Positions 3,521 through 63,072 of a DNA stretch of 64,000 bases are shown here, piece after piece. The notes below the pieces were generated by a model, which searched no databases, was not told the DNA's origin, and worked only from the letters and a program-made list of their open reading frames with translations. The stretch is from Escherichia coli (GTDB lineage: Bacteria; Pseudomonadota; Gammaproteobacteria; Enterobacterales; Enterobacteriaceae), in NCBI RefSeq assembly GCF_048403405.1, contig NZ_CP183129.1; one strand, given 5' to 3'. The first letter of the stretch is position 1; each line of letters starts with the position of its first letter. The position numbers and the translations under genes are program-made.

Positions 3521-6316
<2,796 letters not shown>

Positions 6317-53217: not shown

Positions 53218-55689
53218 TTAAGAATCAGCCTGACTCGGGATCAGTTTTTGCCAGATAACTGAAACGTATTTTGCCTGGTAACGGGCGTCATCAAGTGCAT
53301 TATGGCGCTCACCTTCGAATGGAATAGCCGTTCTGGCATCGAAGTCTATGGCTTTCCCCAGCTCAACGATTGTGCGTACATCGCGATCGTTGTAGTAACG
53401 CCACGGGCAGGGGATCCCCTGCCGTTCGTATGAACGGCGCAAAATCGTGTTGTCGAAGTTGGCTCCATTTCCCCAAACCTGAACAAAAAATTCACCGGAG
53501 TTTTCGTCGATAAATTCCCGCAATTGTAACAGTGCATCATCTAACGGGATTTCATCGGTCATAATGGCAGATTGCGCTTCGCGTGATTGCTTAAGCCACC
53601 ATTTAATGGTGTCCCGATCAATGACTCCGCCAGCAGTTTCCAGATCGATAGTCTTACTAAATTCCGGTCCCATATCTCCGGTTTGCGGATCGAAAAATAT
53701 TGCACCTATTGAGATGATCGGGGCATCAGGATTTTTTCCCATGGTTTCAAGGTCGATCATTAGATGGTCACACGTCCTGCTGGTGGATGTGATTTCGTGA
53801 TGACCGTTCACCTTAATTGGGTGATCTGCCGTCTCGCCAGTTTCATTATCGCTATTGTGATGCTGATTGCCGCCAGTGTTCTCCTTGTGTGGATGTTCAG
53901 CGCCTTCCATTTCCTCCGGATCATCTTCCTGAACTTCAACCTGATACTCTTCATCGAATGTTTCTTGGTATGTTGCGTCGCCCATCACCGCGCCACAATC
54001 AGGGCAGTTGCCGCCGCCGGTCTGACCGCAGGCGGTGCAGGCTTTTTCCACTTCCTGTTGCGCCACTGGTTCAGGCTGTTTCGTTTCTGGCTCGTTTTGT
54101 AACGCATTTGGACTGTTTTGTTCCGCTTTTTGGTAGTTCCGTTCCGATTCATGCTGGTTCTGGTTCACAGAATCGCGGGTCTGGATCCCCTTAACCCATT
54201 TCGGATCATTCGGGTCACTAATCCCTTCAACAAATTCACCACGTGATGCAGCAAGCAACTTATCGGCGTCAGGCTGGCTGATATTGGCTGCCTGCATAAT
54301 TTTGTTTACTTCGTCAGCGGTAACTTTTATCGGCTCTGGTTGTTCTGAATCTTCAGCGGTATCTACATTTTGCGGTAAGCCCGTGTATGTGCCATTTTTT
54401 CGGGCAAAATATTCTTCTTTTGTGATTTCAGTGGCGCCAGCAGCCAGTGCCTTATCCAGACCAGAAAGTTTGTTTGCGCGACCGTATTTTTCTCCGTCCT
54501 TATCTGCGAAGAGGAAATAGAACGGCCCCTCACGCTCTACAGATGGTTCAGTTTCCGGCGCGGTTTCATTTTTTGGGATATCAGATACCTCAGTTTCCAC
54601 TGCATCAGTTTGTGTTTCTGATGACTGGAGAACAGCAACAGTGCCCAGGTCTGTTTCTTCATTCTCAAACACGCCCTTTGTCGTCAGGTATTCGCAGATA
54701 TATTTGTTCAGTGCTACGGGATCTTTGTGAATGTCGATCGGACGCTCACGGACAAGGCCAAAAATAGTTTGGCGGTCGTAGCGAAGGGCATCAGGCTGTT
54801 TGCGTATTGATGCCGAGATACGCTTCCAGTCTTCGCGGTCGTTGTCGATAACTTCTTTTTTTGCCCAGCGATGGATGCTGCCGTCAATGTTTCCGGCATC
54901 CACATCACCAGGCCAGAGAGCGTAGGCCAGTTCGTCATCCAGTGTTTTCCATGTCTGCTTGTATTCGCGATGAATGGCAGCAATGACCGAGCTGATTTTT
55001 CCTGTTGAATTTTCAGTGTACTGTTGATTGGCTCTGGCGCGGGCGAGATCAACAACAGACGTGTATTTTCCGGTTTCCTTGCGTTCACCTTCGCGACGTT
55101 TTTTCCAGATGCGCATCTCTGCCTGAATTTCGGGCCATTTAGCACCAGGAATACATTTATGCTTAACCCACCCAATGGCGTGCAACTTAAGCTCCGGATA
55201 CATGGCGTTAACTTCTGGCATTTTCATCAACGCTTCAACGATATGTCCGTCGAATGTTGCCATGTCTTCCTGCAACAATTCCTGTGCGCTAATAACCATA
55301 TCAACGGTGATGTTTTCACATGTGTCGAACTTAACCATGACAGCGTTCTGTACTTCAGGGGCCAGCTTGTCAAAAGTGACGTTCATCGGATCGGATTCAG
55401 TCTCAACCGGGACAAAAGAAGCAGACTCCTCATCCCAGCGGTTTTCCTGCATATATTCAGCATCCCATGAATCGAGGGCAGGGCGGGGTATGCCAGGTTT
55501 ATCCTCGCAGACAATAAATTTATAAGCGCAGTCCTGAGCAGCCGGATAATGTTCCAGGAATTGCCAGTGAAATTTTGCTCGAGCACGGCGTTCGTCGCCA
55601 GCTTCAATGGCTGTGGCTACAGCCACAGCGCCTTCTTCCCTTGTTGCCAGTTCGTCAGGAATAGCGGCGCAAATAAAGACTTTACTCAT
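53218..55689 (-). CDS. prophage exonuclease (exodeoxyribonuclease VIII-like; C-terminal DEDDh/DnaQ-type 3'-5' exonuclease domain)
   Basis: 823-aa protein; the C-terminal part has Exo I (MIDLETMG), Exo II (GANFD) and Exo III (HNALDDA) motifs; a central acidic low-complexity tract with a CxxC-x7-CxxC knuckle (CTACGQTGGGNCPDC). It sits where K-12 Qin has the truncated ydfE. Confidence 0.75.
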   Translation of the reverse strand: MSKVFICAAIPDELATREEGAVAVATAIEAGDERRARAKFHWQFLEHYPAAQDCAYKFIVCEDKPGIPRPALDSWDAEYMQENRWDEESASFVPVETESDPMNVTFDKLAPEVQNAVMVKFDTCENITVDMVISAQELLQEDMATFDGHIVEALMKMPEVNAMYPELKLHAIGWVKHKCIPGAKWPEIQAEMRIWKKRREGERKETGKYTSVVDLARARANQQYTENSTGKISSVIAAIHREYKQTWKTLDDELAYALWPGDVDAGNIDGSIHRWAKKEVIDNDREDWKRISASIRKQPDALRYDRQTIFGLVRERPIDIHKDPVALNKYICEYLTTKGVFENEETDLGTVAVLQSSETQTDAVETEVSDIPKNETAPETEPSVEREGPFYFLFADKDGEKYGRANKLSGLDKALAAGATEITKEEYFARKNGTYTGLPQNVDTAEDSEQPEPIKVTADEVNKIMQAANISQPDADKLLAASRGEFVEGISDPNDPKWVKGIQTRDSVNQNQHESERNYQKAEQNSPNALQNEPETKQPEPVAQQEVEKACTACGQTGGGNCPDCGAVMGDATYQETFDEEYQVEVQEDDPEEMEGAEHPHKENTGGNQHHNSDNETGETADHPIKVNGHHEITSTSRTCDHLMIDLETMGKNPDAPIISIGAIFFDPQTGDMGPEFSKTIDLETAGGVIDRDTIKWWLKQSREAQSAIMTDEIPLDDALLQLREFIDENSGEFFVQVWGNGANFDNTILRRSYERQGIPCPWRYYNDRDVRTIVELGKAIDFDARTAIPFEGERHNALDDARYQAKYVSVIWQKLIPSQADS

Positions 55690-56645: not shown

Positions 56646-57221
56646 TTAAGGATTCATTAAGCAATGTCGCAACCACCAATAAATCCGCTTAAGAACATGA
56701 AAATTGATTACTGGTATAAAGCGCTTACAGTTGTTGGCGCTGCGTTGTTTGTCTTTAATGGAACGTCTTTTTTTGACAGATATCCCGTTGTTCCATTGGG
56801 TTTTTTGTCCTCCGGCATCTTTTTTATTGGTTTGGGGGAGTGGATTAATCACCCTCTCAAAGTGAGATTTATTGGTCCTGGAGTTTGGACTCGTGGATAT
56901 AATCGTTCTTCGTGCGCACTCGGTATCATCTTCGACATACTTGGTTGTTTCCTGATTGTTACAGGAGTCGTCAAGTTCTTCTGATGTAAAACCGCAAATG
57001 GGGCACGTAACGGGAATTTTGAAAAGCGTTTCTCCGGGTTCCAGAACAAAATTTTCTGCGGTCTGATTTTGCTTCTCATATTTGTGCTCCGCGTCATTGT
57101 GAGAGCACATTCTTATTCTGAGTGCCTGTTTAAACTCACTGAAGCTGAGAGCTTCTTCGCCTTCGGCAAGGCCTTCGAAGTATTCTTCGTAAGCCTTTTC
57201 CATGATTGTGTCGAAATCCAT
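56646..57221 (-). CDS. hypothetical early-left protein (ydfB/ydfC region)
   Basis: Start MDFDTIMEKAYEEYFEGL at 57221 with AGGTGAG RBS, 1 nt after the ydfA stop; contains a CPxC knuckle (PVTCPICGF). The C-terminal two-thirds is low-complexity N/K/R-rich and overlaps the plus-strand ORF, so the true 3' end is uncertain. Confidence 0.45.
   Translation of the reverse strand: MDFDTIMEKAYEEYFEGLAEGEEALSFSEFKQALRIRMCSHNDAEHKYEKQNQTAENFVLEPGETLFKIPVTCPICGFTSEELDDSCNNQETTKYVEDDTECARRTIISTSPNSRTNKSHFERVINPLPQTNKKDAGGQKTQWNNGISVKKRRSIKDKQRSANNCKRFIPVINFHVLKRIYWWLRHCLMNP
56664..56984 (+). CDS. candidate 106-aa three-helix membrane protein, antisense to the early-left operon
   Basis: ORF with three hydrophobic segments and basic residues in the loops, AAGGA about 11 nt upstream of the ATG, G-rich first codon positions. 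It is exactly codon-antisense to the 3' part of the minus-strand ORF 56646..57221, so only one of the two is likely to be real. Confidence 0.4.
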   Translation: MSQPPINPLKNMKIDYWYKALTVVGAALFVFNGTSFFDRYPVVPLGFLSSGIFFIGLGEWINHPLKVRFIGPGVWTRGYNRSSCALGIIFDILGCFLIVTGVVKFF

Positions 57222-57222
57222 A

Positions 57223-57378
57223 TCACTCACCTGAGTTTCTTTCCAGCCAGCGACGGGCACCATTTTCGGTTTTAAACGTTTTGCTTTTGGTATACGTCAT
57301 CGCGGTGAACGTGCCGTCCTGGTTGGGGAACACGCCACATACCAGAGATTCGCTGTTGCCAAGATCGATAGTATCCAT
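57223..57378 (-). CDS. ydfA: small prophage protein YdfA
   Basis: 51-aa protein MDTIDLGNSESLVCGVFPNQDGTFTAMTYTKSKTFKTENGARRWLERNSGE, matching my memory of K-12 YdfA; first gene after the left operator. Confidence 0.8.
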   Translation of the reverse strand: MDTIDLGNSESLVCGVFPNQDGTFTAMTYTKSKTFKTENGARRWLERNSGE

Positions 57379-57491: not shown

Positions 57492-57511
57492 TTGTTAGAT
57501 TGATCTAACAA
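57492..57511. promoter_or_regulatory. palindromic operator (GTTAGA-N4-TCTAAC) between dicA and ydfA (early-left promoter region)
   Basis: Seen in sequence: TTGTTAGAT-TG-ATCTAACAA, perfect 9-bp half-sites; same half-site as the operator in the dicA-dicC intergenic region. Confidence 0.65.
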
Positions 57512-57546
57512 AAAGAGTGGGCGCAACTAATCACTTGAAAAGAATG

Positions 57547-57954
57547 TTATTTTATTGATTTATTTTTACGCGCTTTAAGCATTTCTTCGAAGAGTTTGTT
57601 GAAGTTTTCTACTCTTGCGCGCATTTCAGACAGCAAGGCTTCCTGCTCGGAAGATGGAAGAGCATCGAATAATTCGATCAATTCTTTGTGGTTGGGAGTT
57701 AGCTCTGTTTCCACATGAAGTTCTTGTGCAGGCACTGGTGCCTTGTCTTCGTCACCAAACATTAGCCATGTAGGTGAGCACTTCAGAGCATCCGCTAAAG
57801 CAAACAATCGTTTTCCGACTGGCTGGGTTTCGTCTCTTTCCCATTGTGAAATTGTGACGTGAGCAACTCCAGCGAGGCGCGCAGCTTCTCGTTGTGTTAA
57901 GCGTAATTCTTTTCGTCGCGCCAGAACTCGCTGGCCTAGGGTTCTTGTATCCAT
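57547..57954 (-). CDS. dicA: DicA-like HTH_XRE immunity repressor (cI functional analogue)
   Basis: 135-aa protein with XRE-type HTH (LRLTQREAARLAGVAHVTISQWERDE); similar to, but clearly diverged from, my remembered K-12 DicA; divergent from the Cro-like gene. Confidence 0.85.
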   Translation of the reverse strand: MDTRTLGQRVLARRKELRLTQREAARLAGVAHVTISQWERDETQPVGKRLFALADALKCSPTWLMFGDEDKAPVPAQELHVETELTPNHKELIELFDALPSSEQEALLSEMRARVENFNKLFEEMLKARKNKSIK

Positions 57955-57976
57955 AGTTAGGTAATTCTAATTTTTC

Positions 57977-58020
57977 TTGACTTAGGTATCCCGCGCACAA
58001 TAATGTTAGAAAAGTCTAAC
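57977..58020 (+). promoter_or_regulatory. dicC-type promoter with overlapping palindromic operator
   Basis: TTGACT (57977..57982), about 18-bp spacer, TAATGT (58001..58006), overlapped by the palindrome GTTAGA-AAAG-TCTAAC (58005..58020); GGGGG RBS before the dicC-like start. Confidence 0.6.
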
Positions 58021-58031
58021 AAGAGGGGGCT

Positions 58032-58262
58032 TTGATGCTTAAAGTTGACGCAATTACTTTTTTTGGCAGCAAAACAAAGCTTGCCAATGCCGCAGGAGTG
58101 AGACTGGCAAGTGTTGCTGCTTGGGGGATACTGGTTCCTGAAGGTCGCGCGATGCGTCTACAGGAGGCATCTGGCGGGGAGCTTCAGTATGATCCCAAAG
58201 TTTATGACGAATATCGTAAGACGAAGCGGGCGGGGCGGTTGAACAATGAAAATCACTCCTGA
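58032..58262 (+). CDS. dicC: DicC-like Cro-type repressor
   Basis: 76-aa protein; its C-terminal half (EGRAMRLQEASGGELQYDPKVYDEYRKTKRAGRLNNENHS) matches my memory of DicC. Confidence 0.85.
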   Translation: MMLKVDAITFFGSKTKLANAAGVRLASVAAWGILVPEGRAMRLQEASGGELQYDPKVYDEYRKTKRAGRLNNENHS

Positions 58263-58767
58263 ACAGGCTCGTGAGGCTCTGGATGCCTGGATATGTCGAC
58301 CAGGAATGACACAGGAGCAGGCGACGATATTAATCACTGAAGCATTCTGGGCTTTGAAAGAGCGCCCGAACATCGATGTTCAGCGTGTCACATATGAAGG
58401 TGGCGCGGTTGATCAGCGAGCGCTTAGCGTTAATCGAGTGAAGATATTCGAACGCTGGAAGGCTATCGACACCAGGGATAAGCGTGAAAAGTTCACAGCG
58501 CTAGTGCCTGCAATTATGGAGGCTATCCGGATTAGTGATTTCAGGTTGTATCGTGAGATCAGTGATGGAAAAAGTATTACGTACATGATCGCCGGGTTAA
58601 ATAAAGAATATGGCGATGTGGTGGAATCCGGACTGCTTTTTGCAGATCCTGCCGTTGTAGATCGTGAAACTGACGAACTTATAGAAAAAGCAATTGCTTT
58701 CAAGCTTGCGTATCGACAGCAATACCAACAAAAAGCTGGATGGAATTATGAGTCTTCTTTTTGCTGA
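58246..58767 (+). CDS. hypothetical protein in the cII-equivalent position (possibly YdaT-like)
   Basis: 173-aa ORF overlapping the dicC-like 3' end by 17 nt; the YdaT/cII-analogue assignment is by position only. Confidence 0.4.
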   Translation: MKITPEQAREALDAWICRPGMTQEQATILITEAFWALKERPNIDVQRVTYEGGAVDQRALSVNRVKIFERWKAIDTRDKREKFTALVPAIMEAIRISDFRLYREISDGKSITYMIAGLNKEYGDVVESGLLFADPAVVDRETDELIEKAIAFKLAYRQQYQQKAGWNYESSFC

Positions 58768-59713
58768 ACGCCCACTGGTTATAAACACGCAGCTGGCAAT
58801 GAAAATCGGCTTAAACGAAGCCATTGTTTTGCAACAACTGCACTACTGGTTGAGAGATACCAACTCCGGTATGGAATGTGATGGTGTTCGCTGGATTTAT
58901 AACACAACGGAACAATGGCTGGAACAGTTCCCATTCTGGTCAGAGTCAACGTTAAAGCGCGCGTTTGCAAGTCTGAAAACGCTGGGGCTTTTGCGTTGTG
59001 AAAAGCTCAATAAATCAAAGCGCGATATGACCAATTTCTACACGATCAACTATGGGAGCGAGCTTTTAGATGGTGGCAAATTGAACGAATCCATCGGTTC
59101 AAAATGCGCCGCTCCATCAGGTCAAAATGACACGATGGAAGAGGTCAAAATGAAACGCTCCATTGGTTCAAAACGACCCAATGTCATCGGGTCAAAATGG
59201 CCTGATGATCTTACAGAGAATACAACAGAGATTACTACAGAGAATAAAAACACTTTTCGTCCGGAAGCTTCGCAACCGGACCCGCAGACGACTGAACAGG
59301 ATTTTTTAACCCGGAACCCCGACGCGGTTGTGTTTAGTGTGAAAAAACGCCAGTGGGGTAGCAGGGAGGATTTGGCGTGTGCGCAGTGGATTTGGGGGCG
59401 GATCGTGAACCTTTACGAACAGGCTGCCAGCGACGATGGAGAGATCATGCGACCAAAAGAGCCTAACTGGACAGCCTGGGCCAATGACGTGCGCACAATG
59501 CGGATGCTGGATGGCAGAAGCCACAGACAAATTTGCGAAATGTTTGGTCGGGTACAGCGGGATCCATTCTGGGTAAAAAACATCATGAGCCCGTCAAAAC
59601 TCCGCGAAAAATGGGACGAACTGGTCATCCGCCTGGGACGTTCACCTGTACAGCGTTGTGTTAATCATATTTCTGAACCGGATACAGAAATTCCGCCTGG
59701 TTTCAGGGGATAA
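58748..59713 (+). CDS. phage replication initiator / replisome organiser (lambda O-like)
   Basis: N-terminal wHTH-like segment (LAMKIGLNEAIVLQQLHYWL) typical of phage replisome-organiser N-domains; the gene contains an iteron array followed by an AT-rich tract; the protein has the corresponding IGSK peptide repeats. Start codon uncertain (58694 or 58748). Confidence 0.7.
   Translation: MSLLFAERPLVINTQLAMKIGLNEAIVLQQLHYWLRDTNSGMECDGVRWIYNTTEQWLEQFPFWSESTLKRAFASLKTLGLLRCEKLNKSKRDMTNFYTINYGSELLDGGKLNESIGSKCAAPSGQNDTMEEVKMKRSIGSKRPNVIGSKWPDDLTENTTEITTENKNTFRPEASQPDPQTTEQDFLTRNPDAVVFSVKKRQWGSREDLACAQWIWGRIVNLYEQAASDDGEIMRPKEPNWTAWANDVRTMRMLDGRSHRQICEMFGRVQRDPFWVKNIMSPSKLREKWDELVIRLGRSPVQRCVNHISEPDTEIPPGFRG
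59093..59200. repeat. origin-like iteron array inside the O-like gene
   Basis: Five direct repeats of (A/T)TCNGGT(T)CAAAA(T/C)G spaced 21-25 bp apart (about 59096, 59120, 59144, 59165, 59190), followed by an AT-rich stretch (about 59200..59260). Confidence 0.65.
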
Positions 59714-59753
59714 GTGTTGATTTCAGGTCATGAGATAATTTTAAGGGGGACTT

Positions 59754-60155
59754 GTGGCAAAAGTTTTTACACAAGAAGAGCGGGAAAAAATTAAAGGGCA
59801 GGTTGTTGAACTCGTACGCCGGAGTGGGCGTGAGACGTTACGGCAACTGGAAGTCAAGACAGGTGCGACAAGATATCTGATGAGCGTTCTCGCAAGAGAG
59901 CTGGTTGCCAGCGGCGATGTATACAACTCTGGTTACGGGTTATTCCCGTCTGAACAGGCGCGTAAGGACTGGCAAAATGCCCGTAAAAAGCTCTCAAGGG
60001 CAAAGCTGAAGAAACCATCTGCGGTTGATCCGGACCTTATCTGGTCATTACCTGACGGAGAAATACGTCGCTACGACAGGCGTCAGAACATAATCTGCCG
60101 CGAGTGCCGGAAGAGTGAAGTTATGCAGCGCATACTGGCATTTTATCAGGGATAA
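59754..60155 (+). CDS. hypothetical prophage protein
   Basis: 133-aa ORF with GTG start and strong AAGGGGGA RBS; basic, contains a CxxC pair (CRECRK); function unknown. Confidence 0.55.
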   Translation: MAKVFTQEEREKIKGQVVELVRRSGRETLRQLEVKTGATRYLMSVLARELVASGDVYNSGYGLFPSEQARKDWQNARKKLSRAKLKKPSAVDPDLIWSLPDGEIRRYDRRQNIICRECRKSEVMQRILAFYQG

Positions 60156-60688
60156 TGTTAGGTATTTTAGACGTTACTAGATTAAAAAGCATTAGTTCAG
60201 GAGTGAATTGACATTCTCATTTTTCATGGCACAGGGTAGATCTGGCGTGGTTGTCCGCTTTGTGCCAACAGCGGACGTTACTAACGAAACTGTGAGTTAA
60301 AAACGGGAGCTGGTCACCTCCATCCCGCGAAATGGAATTCAAAAATGCCCTCATGTACGGTACTTCTAGTCTGATGTGAGCATTTTCGTGGATTTTTTCG
60401 AGCCACTCCAACGAATGATTACATTCAGTTTCGGGCACTAAAACGTCATAAATCCGCAAGTTGAGGAGTAGCGATCAGCCAATTGGTTAAAAAACAGCTT
60501 TAATTCCCTTTTTCAAGCAGGCTCCTTGTCGCACGTCTGGTGCATCCAATTCATTTCAGTTACCCTGATGCCATACTGGCACGGACTAGCTCTCTTAATT
60601 GGCGCTGGTTTGTTAACCTTGTCCGCTGTCGGGTCTTTGTAAGTTGTAATTCCTAAACTAGCATAATTTTATTATAAGGCCTCTTACT

Positions 60689-61714
60689 ATGCACATTTTA
60701 TCTGTTTCAAAAAAGGAAGTTGGAAGAGCTGGGGATAGATTAGTTTCTCAGTTTGGTACAGGTGAAAAATATAAAGAGGAAGATGTACAAATTCTTCATG
60801 AGTGGAGGATGTTGCATTTATATCCTTTAAGTAAAATACAATTTTATATGGAAAGAGAGGCTATTTCCTTAAACAAAAATGCGTTACTATCCTCTAGAAT
60901 TAAGAGGATGCCTTCCATTGTTACTAAGCTTTCTAGATTTCCTGATATGAAGTTAAATAAGATGCAGGATCTTGGTGGGTGCCGGGCTATTTTAAATAAT
61001 CTGGATCAAGTGTATGATTTAGTTAATAAAATAAAATCATCTAAATTCTCACATGAACTAGTTAGAATGGATGATTACATGATAGACGTGAAAGATTCTG
61101 GTTATAGAAGCTTTCATATGGTCTATTCATTCCAAAATAAAAAATTTCCATCTTTAAATGGGTTGCGCATTGAAATGCAAATAAGAACAGCTATTCAACA
61201 TAGCTGGGCTACAGCAGTTGAAATGGTTGGTTTGTTTCGAAAGGAATCATTGAAATCTGGTTTTGGTGATGCAAGATGGCTTAGGTTTTTTGAATTGGTA
61301 TCAGAGCTTTTTTATAAACTTGAGTATGAAAAAGAACCATCTGGGAGTTATATAAAAATATCAGAAGAATTAAGTTATTTATCCGTCGAGTTGAATGTTT
61401 TCGATATATTAGCTGCTTACAATGCCGTAGTTAGCCATATTGAGGGTAGCAAAAAATATGATAAAGGACTTTGCATAATTGTTGTTGATACCATAAAGCG
61501 GAATATAAATATAAAGAGCTTCGAAAATCACAATCATGCGAAGGCGGCAGAAGCTTATGTCGAGTCTGAAAAATACTGCGCGGAAAATAAAGGCTGTGAA
61601 GTGGCTATGGTTTCTGTTAGTTCAATTAGTGAATTAAAAAATGCATATCCTGCTTACTTTTTAGATACGAAAACTTTTTTAAATTATCTCAGTAGGTATG
61701 TTTTTATAAAATAA
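60689..61714 (+). CDS. RelA/SpoT-domain nucleotide pyrophosphokinase (toxSAS-like; candidate fused CapRel-type toxin-antitoxin defence protein)
   Basis: 341-aa protein with the four synthetase motifs in order: RIKRMPSIVTK, DLGGCRAIL, YRSFHMVY, EMQIRTAIQHSWATAVE. No HD hydrolase, TGS or ACT domains; about 130 C-terminal residues unassigned. The gene is markedly AT-rich compared with its flanks. Confidence 0.8.
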   Translation: MHILSVSKKEVGRAGDRLVSQFGTGEKYKEEDVQILHEWRMLHLYPLSKIQFYMEREAISLNKNALLSSRIKRMPSIVTKLSRFPDMKLNKMQDLGGCRAILNNLDQVYDLVNKIKSSKFSHELVRMDDYMIDVKDSGYRSFHMVYSFQNKKFPSLNGLRIEMQIRTAIQHSWATAVEMVGLFRKESLKSGFGDARWLRFFELVSELFYKLEYEKEPSGSYIKISEELSYLSVELNVFDILAAYNAVVSHIEGSKKYDKGLCIIVVDTIKRNINIKSFENHNHAKAAEAYVESEKYCAENKGCEVAMVSVSSISELKNAYPAYFLDTKTFLNYLSRYVFIK

Positions 61715-62448
61715 AAAATGTTATCTGGAGTGGTCTGAATTCTACTAACTTAGTTTTTTCAGACCGCTTCTGACCACAATGGCCTGTGAGGTTCTGCTGC
61801 TAGTCAACATAAAATAACAAAGCCGGCAGGTGGTGGTTGTTGTAAAGTTATTCAATGACATTCATGGAGGCTTAAGCGAATTATTTGTCCCTGGTCGGTA
61901 TGGTGGCAACAGCTTGTTGCGAGAATTTGGCTAATTTGGACTGACTTCCGCTCCTTGCTCAAAGCGGACTAGAAGGTTAGCTTGTGTCGGACTTTGCGTA
62001 TTAAAAGAAGTGCTGGTGGTGACTAGTGGTTGAGCCCCATTTCCACAGAAAAAATCAGAGAAACTATACCCAATAGTTGTATTGAATCACTGACGAGACA
62101 GCCTCATATTCATCAGGACTGGTGTACGTCCAATACAGGAGGTTGTGGTGCTGGTTCTCAAATGTGCGCTGGCTATTACGGCTGTAATGGCGATTTATTG
62201 TCTTGCTATTGTTCTTATGGATCGCCTTTCTGACTGATTTCATATTGGCGAGGTAAAGGTAGTTAAGTAGAATGGCTGCGGGTGCTTGAGGCTATCTGCC
62301 TCGGGCATGAACACCAAAGGCAGATAGAGAAAAGCCCCAGTTAACATTACGCGTCCTGCAAGACGCTTAACATTAATCTGAGGCCAATTTCATGCTAGAC
62401 ACATGTAGGTTAGCCTCTTACGTGCCGGAAGGCAAGGAGAAGCAGGCT

Positions 62449-62604
62449 ATGAAGCAGCAAAAGGCGATGTTAATCGCCCTGATCGTCATCTGTTTAACCG
62501 TCATAGTGACGGCACTGGTAACGAGGAAAGACCTCTGCGAGGTACGAATCCGAACCGGCCAGACGGAGGTCGCTGTCTTCACAGCTTACGAACCTGAGGA
62601 GTAA
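62449..62604 (+). CDS. hokD: Hok/Gef-family membrane toxin
   Basis: 51-aa protein MKQQKAMLIALIVICLTVIVTALVTRKDLCEVRIRTGQTEVAVFTAYEPEE, matching my memory of HokD; AAGGAGA RBS; upstream fold-back elements typical of hok mRNAs. No relB/relE ORFs are present upstream. Confidence 0.9.
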   Translation: MKQQKAMLIALIVICLTVIVTALVTRKDLCEVRIRTGQTEVAVFTAYEPEE

Positions 62605-62820
62605 GAGACCCGGCGAGGGAGAAATCCCTCGCCACCTCTGATGTGGCAGGCATCCTCAACGCACCCGCACTTAACCCGCTTCGGCGGGTTTTTGTTTTTA
62701 TTTTCAACGCGTTTGAAGTTCTGGACGGTGCCGGAATAGAATCAAAAATACTTAAGTAGCGCGCAGGGATAAGAGGGATGGTCCCTTAAAGGGGAGAGCT
62801 AATTATCCGGAAGAATTCTG

Positions 62821-63072
62821 ATGATGAACATCGAAGAACTGCGTAAAATTTTTTGTGAAGATGGCCTCTATGCTGTGTGCGTTGAAAATGGAAATCTTGT
62901 TAGTCATTACCGCATTATGTGTTTGCGAAAGAATGGGGCTGCGTTAATTAATTTTGTGGATGGTCGAGTGACAGACGGATTTATCTTGCGCGAAGGTGAG
63001 TTTGTCACTTCATTACAGGCACTGAAAGAGATCGGAATAAAAGCAGGCTTTTCAGCTTTTGCAGAAGAATAA
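62821..63072 (+). CDS. rem: Qin prophage protein Rem
   Basis: 83-aa protein MMNIEELRKIFCEDGLYAVCVENG..., matching my memory of K-12 Rem; downstream of hokD as in K-12. Confidence 0.8.
   Translation: MMNIEELRKIFCEDGLYAVCVENGNLVSHYRIMCLRKNGAALINFVDGRVTDGFILREGEFVTSLQALKEIGIKAGFSAFAEE

What the first reader, a model, noticed from the sequence alone, without database searches (positions are those of the whole stretch)
58694..60155. Replication module appears incomplete: no recognisable helicase or helicase-loader gene
Lambdoid replication modules normally pair the initiator with a P-like loader or a DnaC/DnaB-type helicase. Here the only downstream gene is a 133-aa hypothetical protein, immediately followed by the AT-rich cargo block. 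Either the loader is a novel small protein or the cargo insertion removed part of the module.
Basis: inference. Interest (0 to 1): 0.3.

Follow-up and report, generated by a model that had tools for sequence, protein, structure and literature searches.

The report
Loader-less lambda-type phage replication module
The prophage really has no helicase or helicase-loader gene, but this is a common and apparently working design: viable E. coli and Shigella phages share it, and the initiator carries the C-terminal tail of the host protein DnaT, probably to borrow the host's own loader.

Summary
Between the initiator gene (58748-59713; the ORF opens at 58694) and the low-GC cargo there is only a 133-aa gene. 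An identical 43-kb prophage in strain 4621 has no helicase or loader anywhere.

Neither proposed explanation holds.
- **The 133-aa protein** is DUF977, a winged-helix homologue of lambda Ren sitting at the ren position. It is not a loader.
- **The cargo block (60152-62104)** clips only the last 7 codons of DUF977 and replaces non-replication DNA.

The initiator is a lambda O homologue. It has a winged-helix N-domain, 4-5 iterons plus an A-rich tract inside its own gene, and a lambda-O-type C-domain. Its last ~20 residues match the tail of host DnaT (…SEPDxxIPPGFRG).

The same initiator-then-no-loader order occurs in phages HannyBb, PhiR42_1, mEp460, SfII, SfIV and KpF5. The same junction occurs in 1,872 of 5,426 complete E. 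coli genomes.

Tail type tracks loader type:
- DnaT-type tails are followed by a DnaC-like gene or nothing, never by P (about 140 loci).
- Other tails, mostly the acidic Trp-rich lambda-O type, are followed by lambda-P (8 of 8).

Best reading: a complete module that recruits host DnaB-DnaC through the tail. That last step is inferred. The locus is ordinary; the tail-loader rule is a modest lead.

The parts
57547..57954 (-). Immunity repressor (DicA/cI-like HTH, 135 aa)
   Evidence: Pfam HTH_3 E 1.5e-14 and PHROG repressor families. It is divergent from the cro-like gene, as in lambdoid immunity regions.
58032..58262 (+). Cro/DicC-like regulator, first gene of the early-right operon
   Evidence: Pfam P22_Cro E 5e-12. 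PGAP calls it 'DicC'.
58246..58767 (+). YdaT / cII-like protein (173 aa); overlaps the initiator start by 20 nt
   Evidence: Pfam YdaT_toxin E 4e-6 and PHROG 163 'CII-like' E 9e-41.
58748..59713 (+). Lambda-O-type replication initiator (321 aa from ATG 58748; the ORF opens at TTG 58694)
59092..59199 (+). Origin iterons: four exact CATYRGKTCAAAAYG copies (59092, 59115, 59161, 59185) plus a degenerate fifth at 59138, spaced 23-24 bp, inside the initiator gene
   Evidence: the repeat finder family D1 and the sequence itself. All four exact matches in the 64-kb window fall within this 108 bp. The repeats encode the repeated peptide SIGSK/VIGSK in the disordered linker. Lambda has the same layout, with ori iterons inside O.
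59208..59260 (+). A-rich tract next to the iterons (70% A+T, 45% A); presumed unwinding element
   Evidence: Composition and sequence. Its position matches the A+T-rich region right of the lambda iterons (established knowledge of ori-lambda).
59285..59641 (+). Initiator C-terminal domain (residues 180-298), homologous to the lambda O C-domain
   Evidence: hhalign against lambda O residues 170-271: 99.8% probability, E 7e-30, 42% identity. Against DnaT: 0.3% probability.
59651..59710 (+). DnaT-type C-terminal tail (…RCVNHISEPDTEIPPGFRG-COOH); proposed docking motif for host helicase-loading proteins
   Evidence: It matches the last 20 residues of DnaT (NCBIfam PRK02854 positions 160-179; PDB chains 2ru8, 6aep, 9zbt). 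Rac YdaU carries the same tail. Nucleotide homology to the P-carrying relative L012 stops at 59638, just upstream of the tail.
59754..60155 (+). DUF977 / Ren-like winged-helix protein (133 aa), short by 7 C-terminal residues
60152..62104 (.). Low-GC cargo block. It is not part of the replication module; it marks the module's right-hand edge
   Evidence: It replaces 1.2 kb of HannyBb (blastn breakpoints at 60151 and 62105). GC is 0.36-0.41. It carries the RelA/SpoT-domain gene 60689-61714, which is PADLOC candidate PDC-S33, E 5e-119.

Best explanation
This is a complete lambda-type replication module of the initiator-only kind, not a truncated one.

Shown:
- The 321-aa protein is a lambda O homologue. 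Its winged-helix N-domain is expected to bind the 4-5 iterons that lie inside its own gene, next to an A-rich tract that would serve as the unwinding element.
- Its C-domain is of the lambda O type.
- Its last ~20 residues are the C-terminal tail of host DnaT, in place of lambda O's acidic Trp-rich tail.
- Across relatives, the tail and the loader gene are inherited together. DnaT-type tails go with a DnaC-like gene (about 50% identical to host DnaC) or with no loader. The other tails found, mostly of the lambda-O type, go with a lambda-P-like gene.

Inferred:
- The tail is a short docking motif. It lets the initiator, once assembled at the origin, recruit the host's DnaB-DnaC complex, or DnaC itself.

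The 133-aa DUF977 protein is the counterpart of lambda Ren, an accessory DNA-binding protein, and has no part in helicase loading.
For: Anatomy of the initiator:
- PHROG O-like match.
- Iterons and A-rich tract.
- C-domain homologous to lambda O, 99.8%.
- Tail matching the DnaT tail.

The module is not truncated:
- Phages HannyBb (whole 45-kb genome, no loader or helicase), PhiR42_1, mEp460_4F5, SfII, KpF5 and ST147-VIM1phi7.2 all have initiator followed by a non-loader gene.
- Both the lytic and lysogenic cycles are reported as confirmed for the focus phages of the study that sequenced mEp460 (PMC9836094).
- The O-to-DUF977 junction is contiguous in 1,872 of 5,426 complete E. coli genomes.
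- It has an invariant +41 spacing in 34 of the 36 IMG/VR loci where DUF977 directly follows O.

Tail-loader rule:
- DnaT-type tails: 24 followed by DnaC-like, 51 by none, 0 by P in scan 1; 73 by none in scan 2.
- Other tails (acidic, Trp-rich, lambda-O type in seven of the eight; acidic DFDYDQRPDDERL in P0389): 8 of 8 followed by Phage_lambda_P, counting lambda itself.
- In L012, the same Qin-type early region has O with a lambda-type tail, then P, then DUF977. Its homology to the window ends 25 codons before the O stop.

The tail also sits next to DnaC in two unrelated contexts: host dnaT-dnaC and Rac ydaU-ydaV.
Against: - No interaction between the tail and DnaC or DnaB has been shown here or in the literature I could read. 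The 2017 review states that no DnaT-DnaC interaction is documented (PMC5778457). The 2026 preprimosome paper proposes the DnaT N-domain, not the tail, as the possible DnaB/DnaC recruiter (PMC13377028).
- In DopC-DopE, a DnaT C-terminal motif is paired with a P-derived protein (PMC5509034). That does not fit a strict tail-to-DnaC rule.
- The locus counts are from related prophages and are not phylogenetically independent.
- Resident prophages such as Rac (ydaV) could supply a DnaC-like loader in trans.
- Whether this particular prophage is inducible was not tested.
Confidence: 0.6

Rival explanations
1. The tail imitates DnaT's contact with the restart machinery rather than with DnaC. The initiator would dock PriA (or PriB, or join a DnaT filament) at the opened origin, and DnaB would then be loaded by the normal PriA-PriB-DnaT-DnaC pathway, as for phiX174 and ColE1-type primosome assembly sites.
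For: - The only cellular protein with this tail is DnaT, a preprimosome component whose C-domain docks on PriA through a hydrophobic, conserved interface (PMC13377028).
- The tail has a hydrophobic core (IPPGF) preceded by acidic residues.
- The loader-less relatives recovered here are E. coli, Shigella, Klebsiella, Citrobacter and Salmonella phages and prophages; these hosts have the PriA-PriB-DnaT system (my knowledge, not tested).
Against: - The initiator lacks both the DnaT N-domain and the DnaT three-helix C-domain (hhalign 0.3%; NCBIfam matches only positions 160-179).
- The text I read does not say that the extreme tail is the part that contacts PriA.
- The recurrent adjacency of the tail to DnaC-like genes points to DnaC rather than PriA.
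Confidence: 0.2
2. The module is a decayed remnant. A DnaC-like or P-like gene was deleted, and the prophage, like K-12 Qin at the same site, can no longer replicate on its own.
For: - Relatives have a loader at exactly this position.
- The prophage occupies the Qin site between rspB and ydfJ. K-12 Qin is cryptic (one search lists a paper on the 'Qin cryptic prophage').
- The O genes of loader-less and DnaC-carrying variants are about 89-94% identical right up to the stop codon. That fits a simple gain or loss of the loader gene.
Against: - The same order is found in complete phage genomes, some of which were isolated or propagated.
- It occurs in 35% of complete E. coli genomes.
- The initiator is full length in almost all of the IMG/VR loci examined, and every locus where DUF977 directly follows it has a full-length 275-321-aa O.
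- The prophage keeps a full set of lysis, head and tail genes.
Confidence: 0.1
3. The 133-aa DUF977 protein is itself a new small loader or adaptor that bridges the initiator to DnaB.
For: - It directly follows the initiator at a fixed +41 spacing in 34 of 36 loci.
- It has a winged-helix domain, as DnaD-type adaptors do.
Against: - It is a Ren homologue. Lambda ren is not needed for replication (established knowledge).
- It is present together with P-like and DnaC-like loaders.
- It is absent from the loader-less SfII, KpF5 and ST147phi7.2 modules, where a Dam methylase or another protein follows O.
- There are no AAA+, P, DciA or DnaD hits by sequence or fold.
Confidence: 0.04
4. Helicase loading is driven by host DnaA bound at the phage origin, as in iteron plasmids that encode only a Rep protein.
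For: Initiator-only replicons such as pSC101 and P1 work this way (established knowledge).
Against: There is no DnaA box (TTATCCACA, up to 1 mismatch) anywhere in 57901-60300. This idea also does not explain the conserved DnaT-type tail.
Confidence: 0.04

Closest known systems
Bacteriophage lambda O-P-ren replication region
   Same: - Gene order cro, cII-like, O, (P), ren.
- Origin iterons plus an A/T-rich tract inside the O gene.
- O C-domain 42% identical to lambda's.
- DUF977 is homologous to Ren.
   Different: - There is no P gene.
- The O N-domain belongs to another wHTH subfamily (PHROG 391, no Pfam hit).
- Lambda O's acidic tail (…LDLTNTDWIYGVDL) is replaced by the DnaT-type tail (…SEPDTEIPPGFRG).
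Loader-less modules of phages SfII, SfIV, mEp460, HannyBb, PhiR42_1 and KpF5 ('primosomal protein I' or 'O-like' annotations)
   Same: - An initiator with a lambda-O-type C-domain and an …IPxGFRG tail, followed by a non-loader gene.
- No helicase or loader in the genome.
- The HannyBb and PhiR42_1 initiators are 97.6-98.2% identical to this one.
   Different: - The SfII type has a different N-domain, and a 162-aa protein follows O instead of DUF977.
- In this prophage a RelA/SpoT cargo block replaces the DNA downstream of DUF977.
Rac prophage ydaU-ydaV-ydaW and host dnaT-dnaC
   Same: In both, a protein ending in …PDSxIPPGFRG is encoded immediately upstream of a DnaC-type AAA+ loader. Rac also has a DUF977 gene (ydaW) after the loader.
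   Different: - Here the DnaC-like gene is absent.
- YdaU has a DUF1376 N-region and DnaT has its own N- and C-domains. Neither resembles lambda O.
DopC-DopE of Cellvibrionales and Oceanospirillales (PMC5509034)
   Same: An O-like N-terminal HTH is combined with a DnaT C-terminal motif.
   Different: - DopC has lost the lambda-O C-domain and the iterons, is chromosomal, and is paired with a P-derived protein.
- Here the lambda-O C-domain and the iterons are kept, and no P is present.

Membership tests
Lambda O-type replication initiators | N-terminal winged-helix DNA-binding domain | tested here: met
Lambda O-type replication initiators | Origin (iterons plus A/T-rich tract) embedded in the initiator's own coding sequence | tested here: met
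   There are four exact iterons and one degenerate one at 59092-59199, spaced 23-24 bp. All exact matches in the 64-kb window lie here. The tract at 59208-59260 is 70% A+T.
Lambda O-type replication initiators | C-terminal domain homologous to lambda O residues ~170-271 | tested here: met
   hhalign 99.8%, E 7e-30, 42% identity.
Lambda O-type replication initiators | Cognate P-type loader encoded immediately downstream, with a lambda-O-type acidic Trp-rich tail | tested here: not met
   The next gene is DUF977, and the tail is DnaT-type. Relatives with non-DnaT tails, mostly the lambda-O type, all have P.
Lambda O-type replication initiators | Sequence-specific binding of the iterons and origin unwinding | not testable with these tools
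   This needs a footprinting or ori-plasmid assay.
DnaT (primosomal protein I) | DnaT N-terminal oligomerisation domain and acidic PriB-binding linker | tested here: not met
   NCBIfam PRK02854 matches only model positions 160-179, scoring 16 bits against a cut-off of 201. There is no Pfam hit.
DnaT (primosomal protein I) | Three-helix-bundle ssDNA-binding C-domain (residues ~84-153) | tested here: not met
   hhalign of the C-domain profile against DnaT gives 0.3% probability.
DnaT (primosomal protein I) | Extreme C-terminal tail …VSEPDxxIPPGFRG-COOH | tested here: met
   About 14 of the last 17 residues are identical to E. coli DnaT, and both tails end at the C-terminus. This protein shares the tail but is not a member of the DnaT family.
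Helicase loaders (DnaC/IstB AAA+, lambda P, DciA, DnaD/DnaB_2), tested on the 133-aa protein | Family HMM match or the corresponding fold | tested here: not met
DUF977 / lambda Ren family | Full-length HMM match, homology to Ren, and position after the replication genes | tested here: met
   Pfam PF06163 matches residues 1-133 of the protein to positions 1-131 of 134, E 3.8e-29. hhalign to lambda Ren covers residues 5-93 of 96 at 95.8%. The gene order matches lambda's O-P-ren. The Ren function, escape from Rex exclusion, is not testable here.
Initiator-only lambdoid replication modules (as in SfII, mEp460, HannyBb) | The initiator is followed by a non-loader gene, and the element has no helicase or loader anywhere | tested here: met
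   The whole-prophage annotation has no helicase or loader. The same order is seen in the named phages.
Initiator-only lambdoid replication modules (as in SfII, mEp460, HannyBb) | Autonomous replication of this particular element | not testable with these tools
   This needs induction or an ori-plasmid test.

The most novel reading that the evidence does not exclude
The last ~17 residues shared by DnaT, Rac YdaU and many lambdoid initiators (…[ST]xPDxxIPxGFRG-COOH) would be a portable short linear motif that docks the DnaB-DnaC complex.

If so:
- It would be the missing link for how DnaT hands the restart primosome over to DnaB-DnaC.
- It would be what allows whole families of temperate phages to drop their own loader.
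- The extreme C-terminal tail of lambda-O-type initiators, rather than the conserved globular C-domain, would select the loader class (P versus DnaC).
Probability: 0.35. Interest if true: 0.6.

Novelty: new member of a known kind. Interest (0 to 1): 0.33.

Why it matters
For annotation, a lambdoid prophage should not be scored as replication-defective only because it lacks P, DnaC or DnaB genes. About a third of complete E. coli genomes carry this initiator-to-DUF977 junction. Proteins labelled 'primosomal protein I' or 'hypothetical' at this position are lambda-O-type initiators.

For mechanism, the co-inheritance of tail and loader gives a concrete, cheap experiment on two questions.
- How DnaT recruits DnaB-DnaC. 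Reviews and the 2026 preprimosome structure paper both call this unknown.
- Which part of lambda-O-type initiators chooses the loader.

Tried and rejected
- **Pfam on the initiator:** no hit at E ≤ 0.01. PHROGs and hhalign against lambda O were needed instead.
- **DnaT C-domain homology of the initiator C-domain:** rejected at 0.3%. YdaU also shows no similarity outside the tail.
- **DnaA boxes near the origin:** none found.
- **Literature:**
  - 'initiator-solo' did not occur in any of the listed papers.
  - The Weigel & Seitz 2006 review is not held. My memory that it describes initiator-only modules is therefore unverified.
  - I found no paper on phage 'DnaT-like' tails, and nothing useful on DUF977.
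  - The papers I read on DnaT do not say what its extreme tail does.
- **Second IMG/VR scan:** seeded with lambda-type-tail sequences to enlarge that class, it returned only SfII-type loci. The lambda-type class therefore rests on 8 cases.
- **Fused tail-DnaC structure prediction:** considered but not run.
- **Simple deletion of a loader by the cargo insertion:** rejected from the blastn breakpoints.
Full report
**1. Setting and observation**

Most of the window is E. coli chromosome (ynfEFGH, speG, rspAB). From about 51579 it holds a lambdoid prophage that runs off the right end. The region 57500-62700 is 100% identical to strain 4621 and about 40 other complete genomes.

In strain 4621 the prophage spans about 43 kb, from an integrase beside rspB to ydfK/ynfT beside a truncated ydfJ. 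This is the Qin site, but here the element keeps a full set of lysis, head and tail genes.

The early-right operon reads:
- repressor, 57547-57954, minus strand
- Cro/DicC-like, 58032-58262
- YdaT/cII-like, 58246-58767
- a 133-aa protein, 59754-60155
- a low-GC block

No helicase or loader family matches either protein in Pfam, PHROGs, NCBIfam or PADLOC. None is annotated anywhere in the complete prophage.

**2. The initiator**

- The 321-aa protein matches PHROG 391 'replication initiation O-like' at E 2e-92.
- AlphaFold2 on a 28-sequence alignment gives four parts: a winged-helix domain (residues 11-110), a disordered linker (113-178), a helical C-domain (180-298) and a disordered tail.
- The linker is encoded by DNA that holds four exact copies and one degenerate copy of CATYRGKTCAAAAYG, spaced 23-24 bp, at 59092-59199. 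These are the only exact matches in the 64 kb. A 70% A+T tract follows at 59208-59260.
- Lambda has the same layout, with its ori iterons inside O.
- The C-domain profile aligns to lambda O residues 170-271 at 99.8% probability, E 7e-30, 42% identity. It does not align to DnaT (0.3%).
- The last 20 residues, RCVNHISEPDTEIPPGFRG, match the extreme C-terminus of DnaT, RDVNTVSEPDSQIPPGFRG. This explains the 'primosomal protein I' label that some pipelines give these proteins.

**3. The 133-aa protein**

- It is Pfam DUF977 over its full length (E 3.8e-29) and PHROG 142 'Ren-like'.
- Its family profile aligns to nearly all of lambda Ren (95.8%, E 8e-9), including the shared …ECRxSxxMxRVLAxY motif.
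- It sits where ren sits in lambda.
- Relatives carry it together with a P-like loader (L012) or a DnaC-like loader.
- Other loader-less phages lack it (SfII, KpF5, ST147phi7.2).

It is therefore not a substitute loader.

**4. The cargo block**

Against phage HannyBb, nucleotide homology (95%) runs from 58131 to 60151, breaks, and resumes at 62105. The window's 60152-62104 replaces 1.2 kb that in HannyBb holds a methyltransferase fragment and a hypothetical gene.

The only damage on the replication side is the loss of the last 7 DUF977 codons: 133 aa, against 140-141 aa ending …AFYQGNFQEVxL in relatives.

The cargo gene 60689-61714 is a RelA/SpoT-domain protein that matches the PADLOC defence candidate PDC-S33.

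**5. Is the loader-less order normal?**

Yes.
- HannyBb (initiator 97.6% identical; whole 45-kb genome listed), PhiR42_1 (98.2%), mEp460_4F5, SfII, KpF5 and ST147-VIM1phi7.2 all have the initiator followed by a non-loader gene. SfIV was recovered only as an initiator match and its gene order was not examined. No helicase or loader is annotated in the HannyBb genome or in the stretches of the other phages that were listed.
- The study that sequenced mEp460 states that lytic and lysogenic cycles were confirmed for its focus phages (PMC9836094). That SfII is an inducible serotype-converting phage rests on my own knowledge.
- A 341-nt query across the O-end/DUF977-start junction is contiguous in 1,872 of 5,426 complete E. 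coli genomes.
- In IMG/VR, DUF977 starts 41 bp after the O stop in 34 of the 36 loci where it directly follows O. These include loci whose initiators have a different N-domain.

**6. Tail type and loader type go together**

DnaT-type tails (…IPxGF[RK][GS]):

| Set | Followed by DnaC-like | No loader within 4 kb | Followed by P-like |
|---|---|---|---|
| 80 IMG/VR relatives, 75 informative | 24 | 51 | 0 |
| Second scan, 73 informative, SfII-type (about 8 contigs shared with the first) | 0 | 73 | 0 |

Three further DnaT-type cases were checked singly. P0250 is followed by a DnaC-like gene. P0252 and P0358 have no loader.

Relatives with the same C-domain but a non-DnaT tail (acidic and Trp-rich, lambda-O type, in all but P0389, whose tail is acidic without Trp) are followed by a Phage_lambda_P gene in 8 of 8 cases. 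These are P0257, P0386, P0034, P0260, P0333, P0278, P0389 and lambda itself.

The clearest case is L012. It has the same Qin-type early region, in the order O, P, DUF977. Its homology to the window (80%) stops at 59638, which is 25 codons before the O stop. The tail and the P gene therefore swap as one unit.

In DnaC-carrying variants, homology runs exactly to the O stop codon, and the DnaC-like gene is a clean presence/absence.

The same tail also ends Rac YdaU, a DUF1376 protein otherwise unrelated, which precedes the DnaC-like YdaV. YdaV is 50% identical to host DnaC. Host dnaT itself precedes dnaC. The counts come from related prophages and are not independent events.

**7. Mechanism**

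Shown: a lambda-O-type initiator with its origin inside the gene; a DnaT-type tail; co-inheritance of tail and loader class; and loader-less relatives that are viable phages.

Inferred, at about 0.4-0.5 for this step: the tail is a short docking motif for DnaC-class loaders or the DnaB-DnaC complex. In Enterobacterales, which have dnaT-dnaC, the host complex can then be used and a phage DnaC copy is optional.

Rivals:
- The tail docks PriA or PriB, as DnaT does, and the full restart primosome loads DnaB (about 0.2).
- The module is decayed (about 0.1).
- DUF977 is the adaptor (about 0.04).
- DnaA-driven loading (about 0.04; no DnaA boxes).

Caveats:
- No DnaT-DnaC contact is documented (PMC5778457).
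- The 2026 preprimosome paper suggests the DnaT N-domain may recruit DnaB/DnaC and calls the mechanism unknown (PMC13377028).
- DopC combines a DnaT C-terminal motif with a P-derived partner (PMC5509034).

**8. Comparison, novelty and score**

The locus works like lambda O-P-ren with P removed and the O tail exchanged. It passes the structural tests for a lambda-O-type initiator, apart from the P partner and the lambda-type tail. It is not a DnaT family member, since only the tail is shared.

The architecture is already present in sequenced, named phages and in thousands of genomes. As a feature it is an ordinary new member of a known kind.

What I did not find stated in the literature I could search is the tail-loader rule and what it implies for DnaT. 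That gives the finding modest interest (0.33). The stronger reading has a probability of about 0.35, with interest 0.6 if true.

Noticed in passing
window 60689-61714 (+), inside the low-GC block 60152-62104: A 341-aa RelA/SpoT-domain protein (Pfam E 4e-18; PHROG 4773 E 5e-134) matches the PADLOC candidate defence family PDC-S33 at E 5e-119. It looks like a phage-borne small alarmone synthetase-type defence or toxin gene, inserted between the ren-like gene and hokD.
   Followed up: partly
window 60132-60155: The DUF977 gene ends 7 codons early (…AFYQG*, against …AFYQGNFQEVxL in most of about 900 homologues). The cargo junction at 60151/60152 lies inside its 3' end. A few relatives (L025, L026) end at the same point, so this may be a recurrent recombination site.
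   Followed up: partly
proteins P0001, P0003, P0004; window 58748-58767 overlap: Some E. coli assemblies (56 contigs for P0001) have a 448-aa ORF that carries the YdaT Pfam domain fused to a 99%-identical initiator. The cause could be a frameshift in the 20-nt ydaT/O overlap or a gene-calling artefact.
   Followed up: no
window 56646-57263 (-) versus 56680-56880 (+) and 56849-57214 (-): Gene calls conflict between the dicB region and the repressor. HannyBb annotates a 205-aa ORF here (PHROG 35040, E 7e-150), whereas PGAP in strain 4621 calls a 121-aa minus-strand gene and a 66-aa plus-strand gene.
   Followed up: no
window 53218-55689 (-): An 823-aa early-left protein is annotated '3'-5' exonuclease' or 'exodeoxyribonuclease VIII'. 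In relatives the matching gene carries the YdfE_N, YdfE_C, Exonuc_VIII and Rv2179c-like Pfam families. It has a long acidic, low-complexity middle region.
   Followed up: no
L007 (Klebsiella phage ST147-VIM1phi7.2), locus 4007-4921: This initiator has the same N-domain as the window's protein (61% identity over residues 17-241) but an unrelated C-domain. It still ends in …DVDYSVPAGFRS and still has no loader gene. The tail therefore moves independently of the lambda-O C-domain.
   Followed up: partly
window 62392-62604 (+) and 62821-63072 (+): A hokD/mokD type I toxin (Pfam HOK_GEF E 3e-23) and rem follow the cargo block, as in K-12 Qin. The relBE-flxA segment found at this place in K-12 and PhiR42_1 is absent here.
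   Followed up: no
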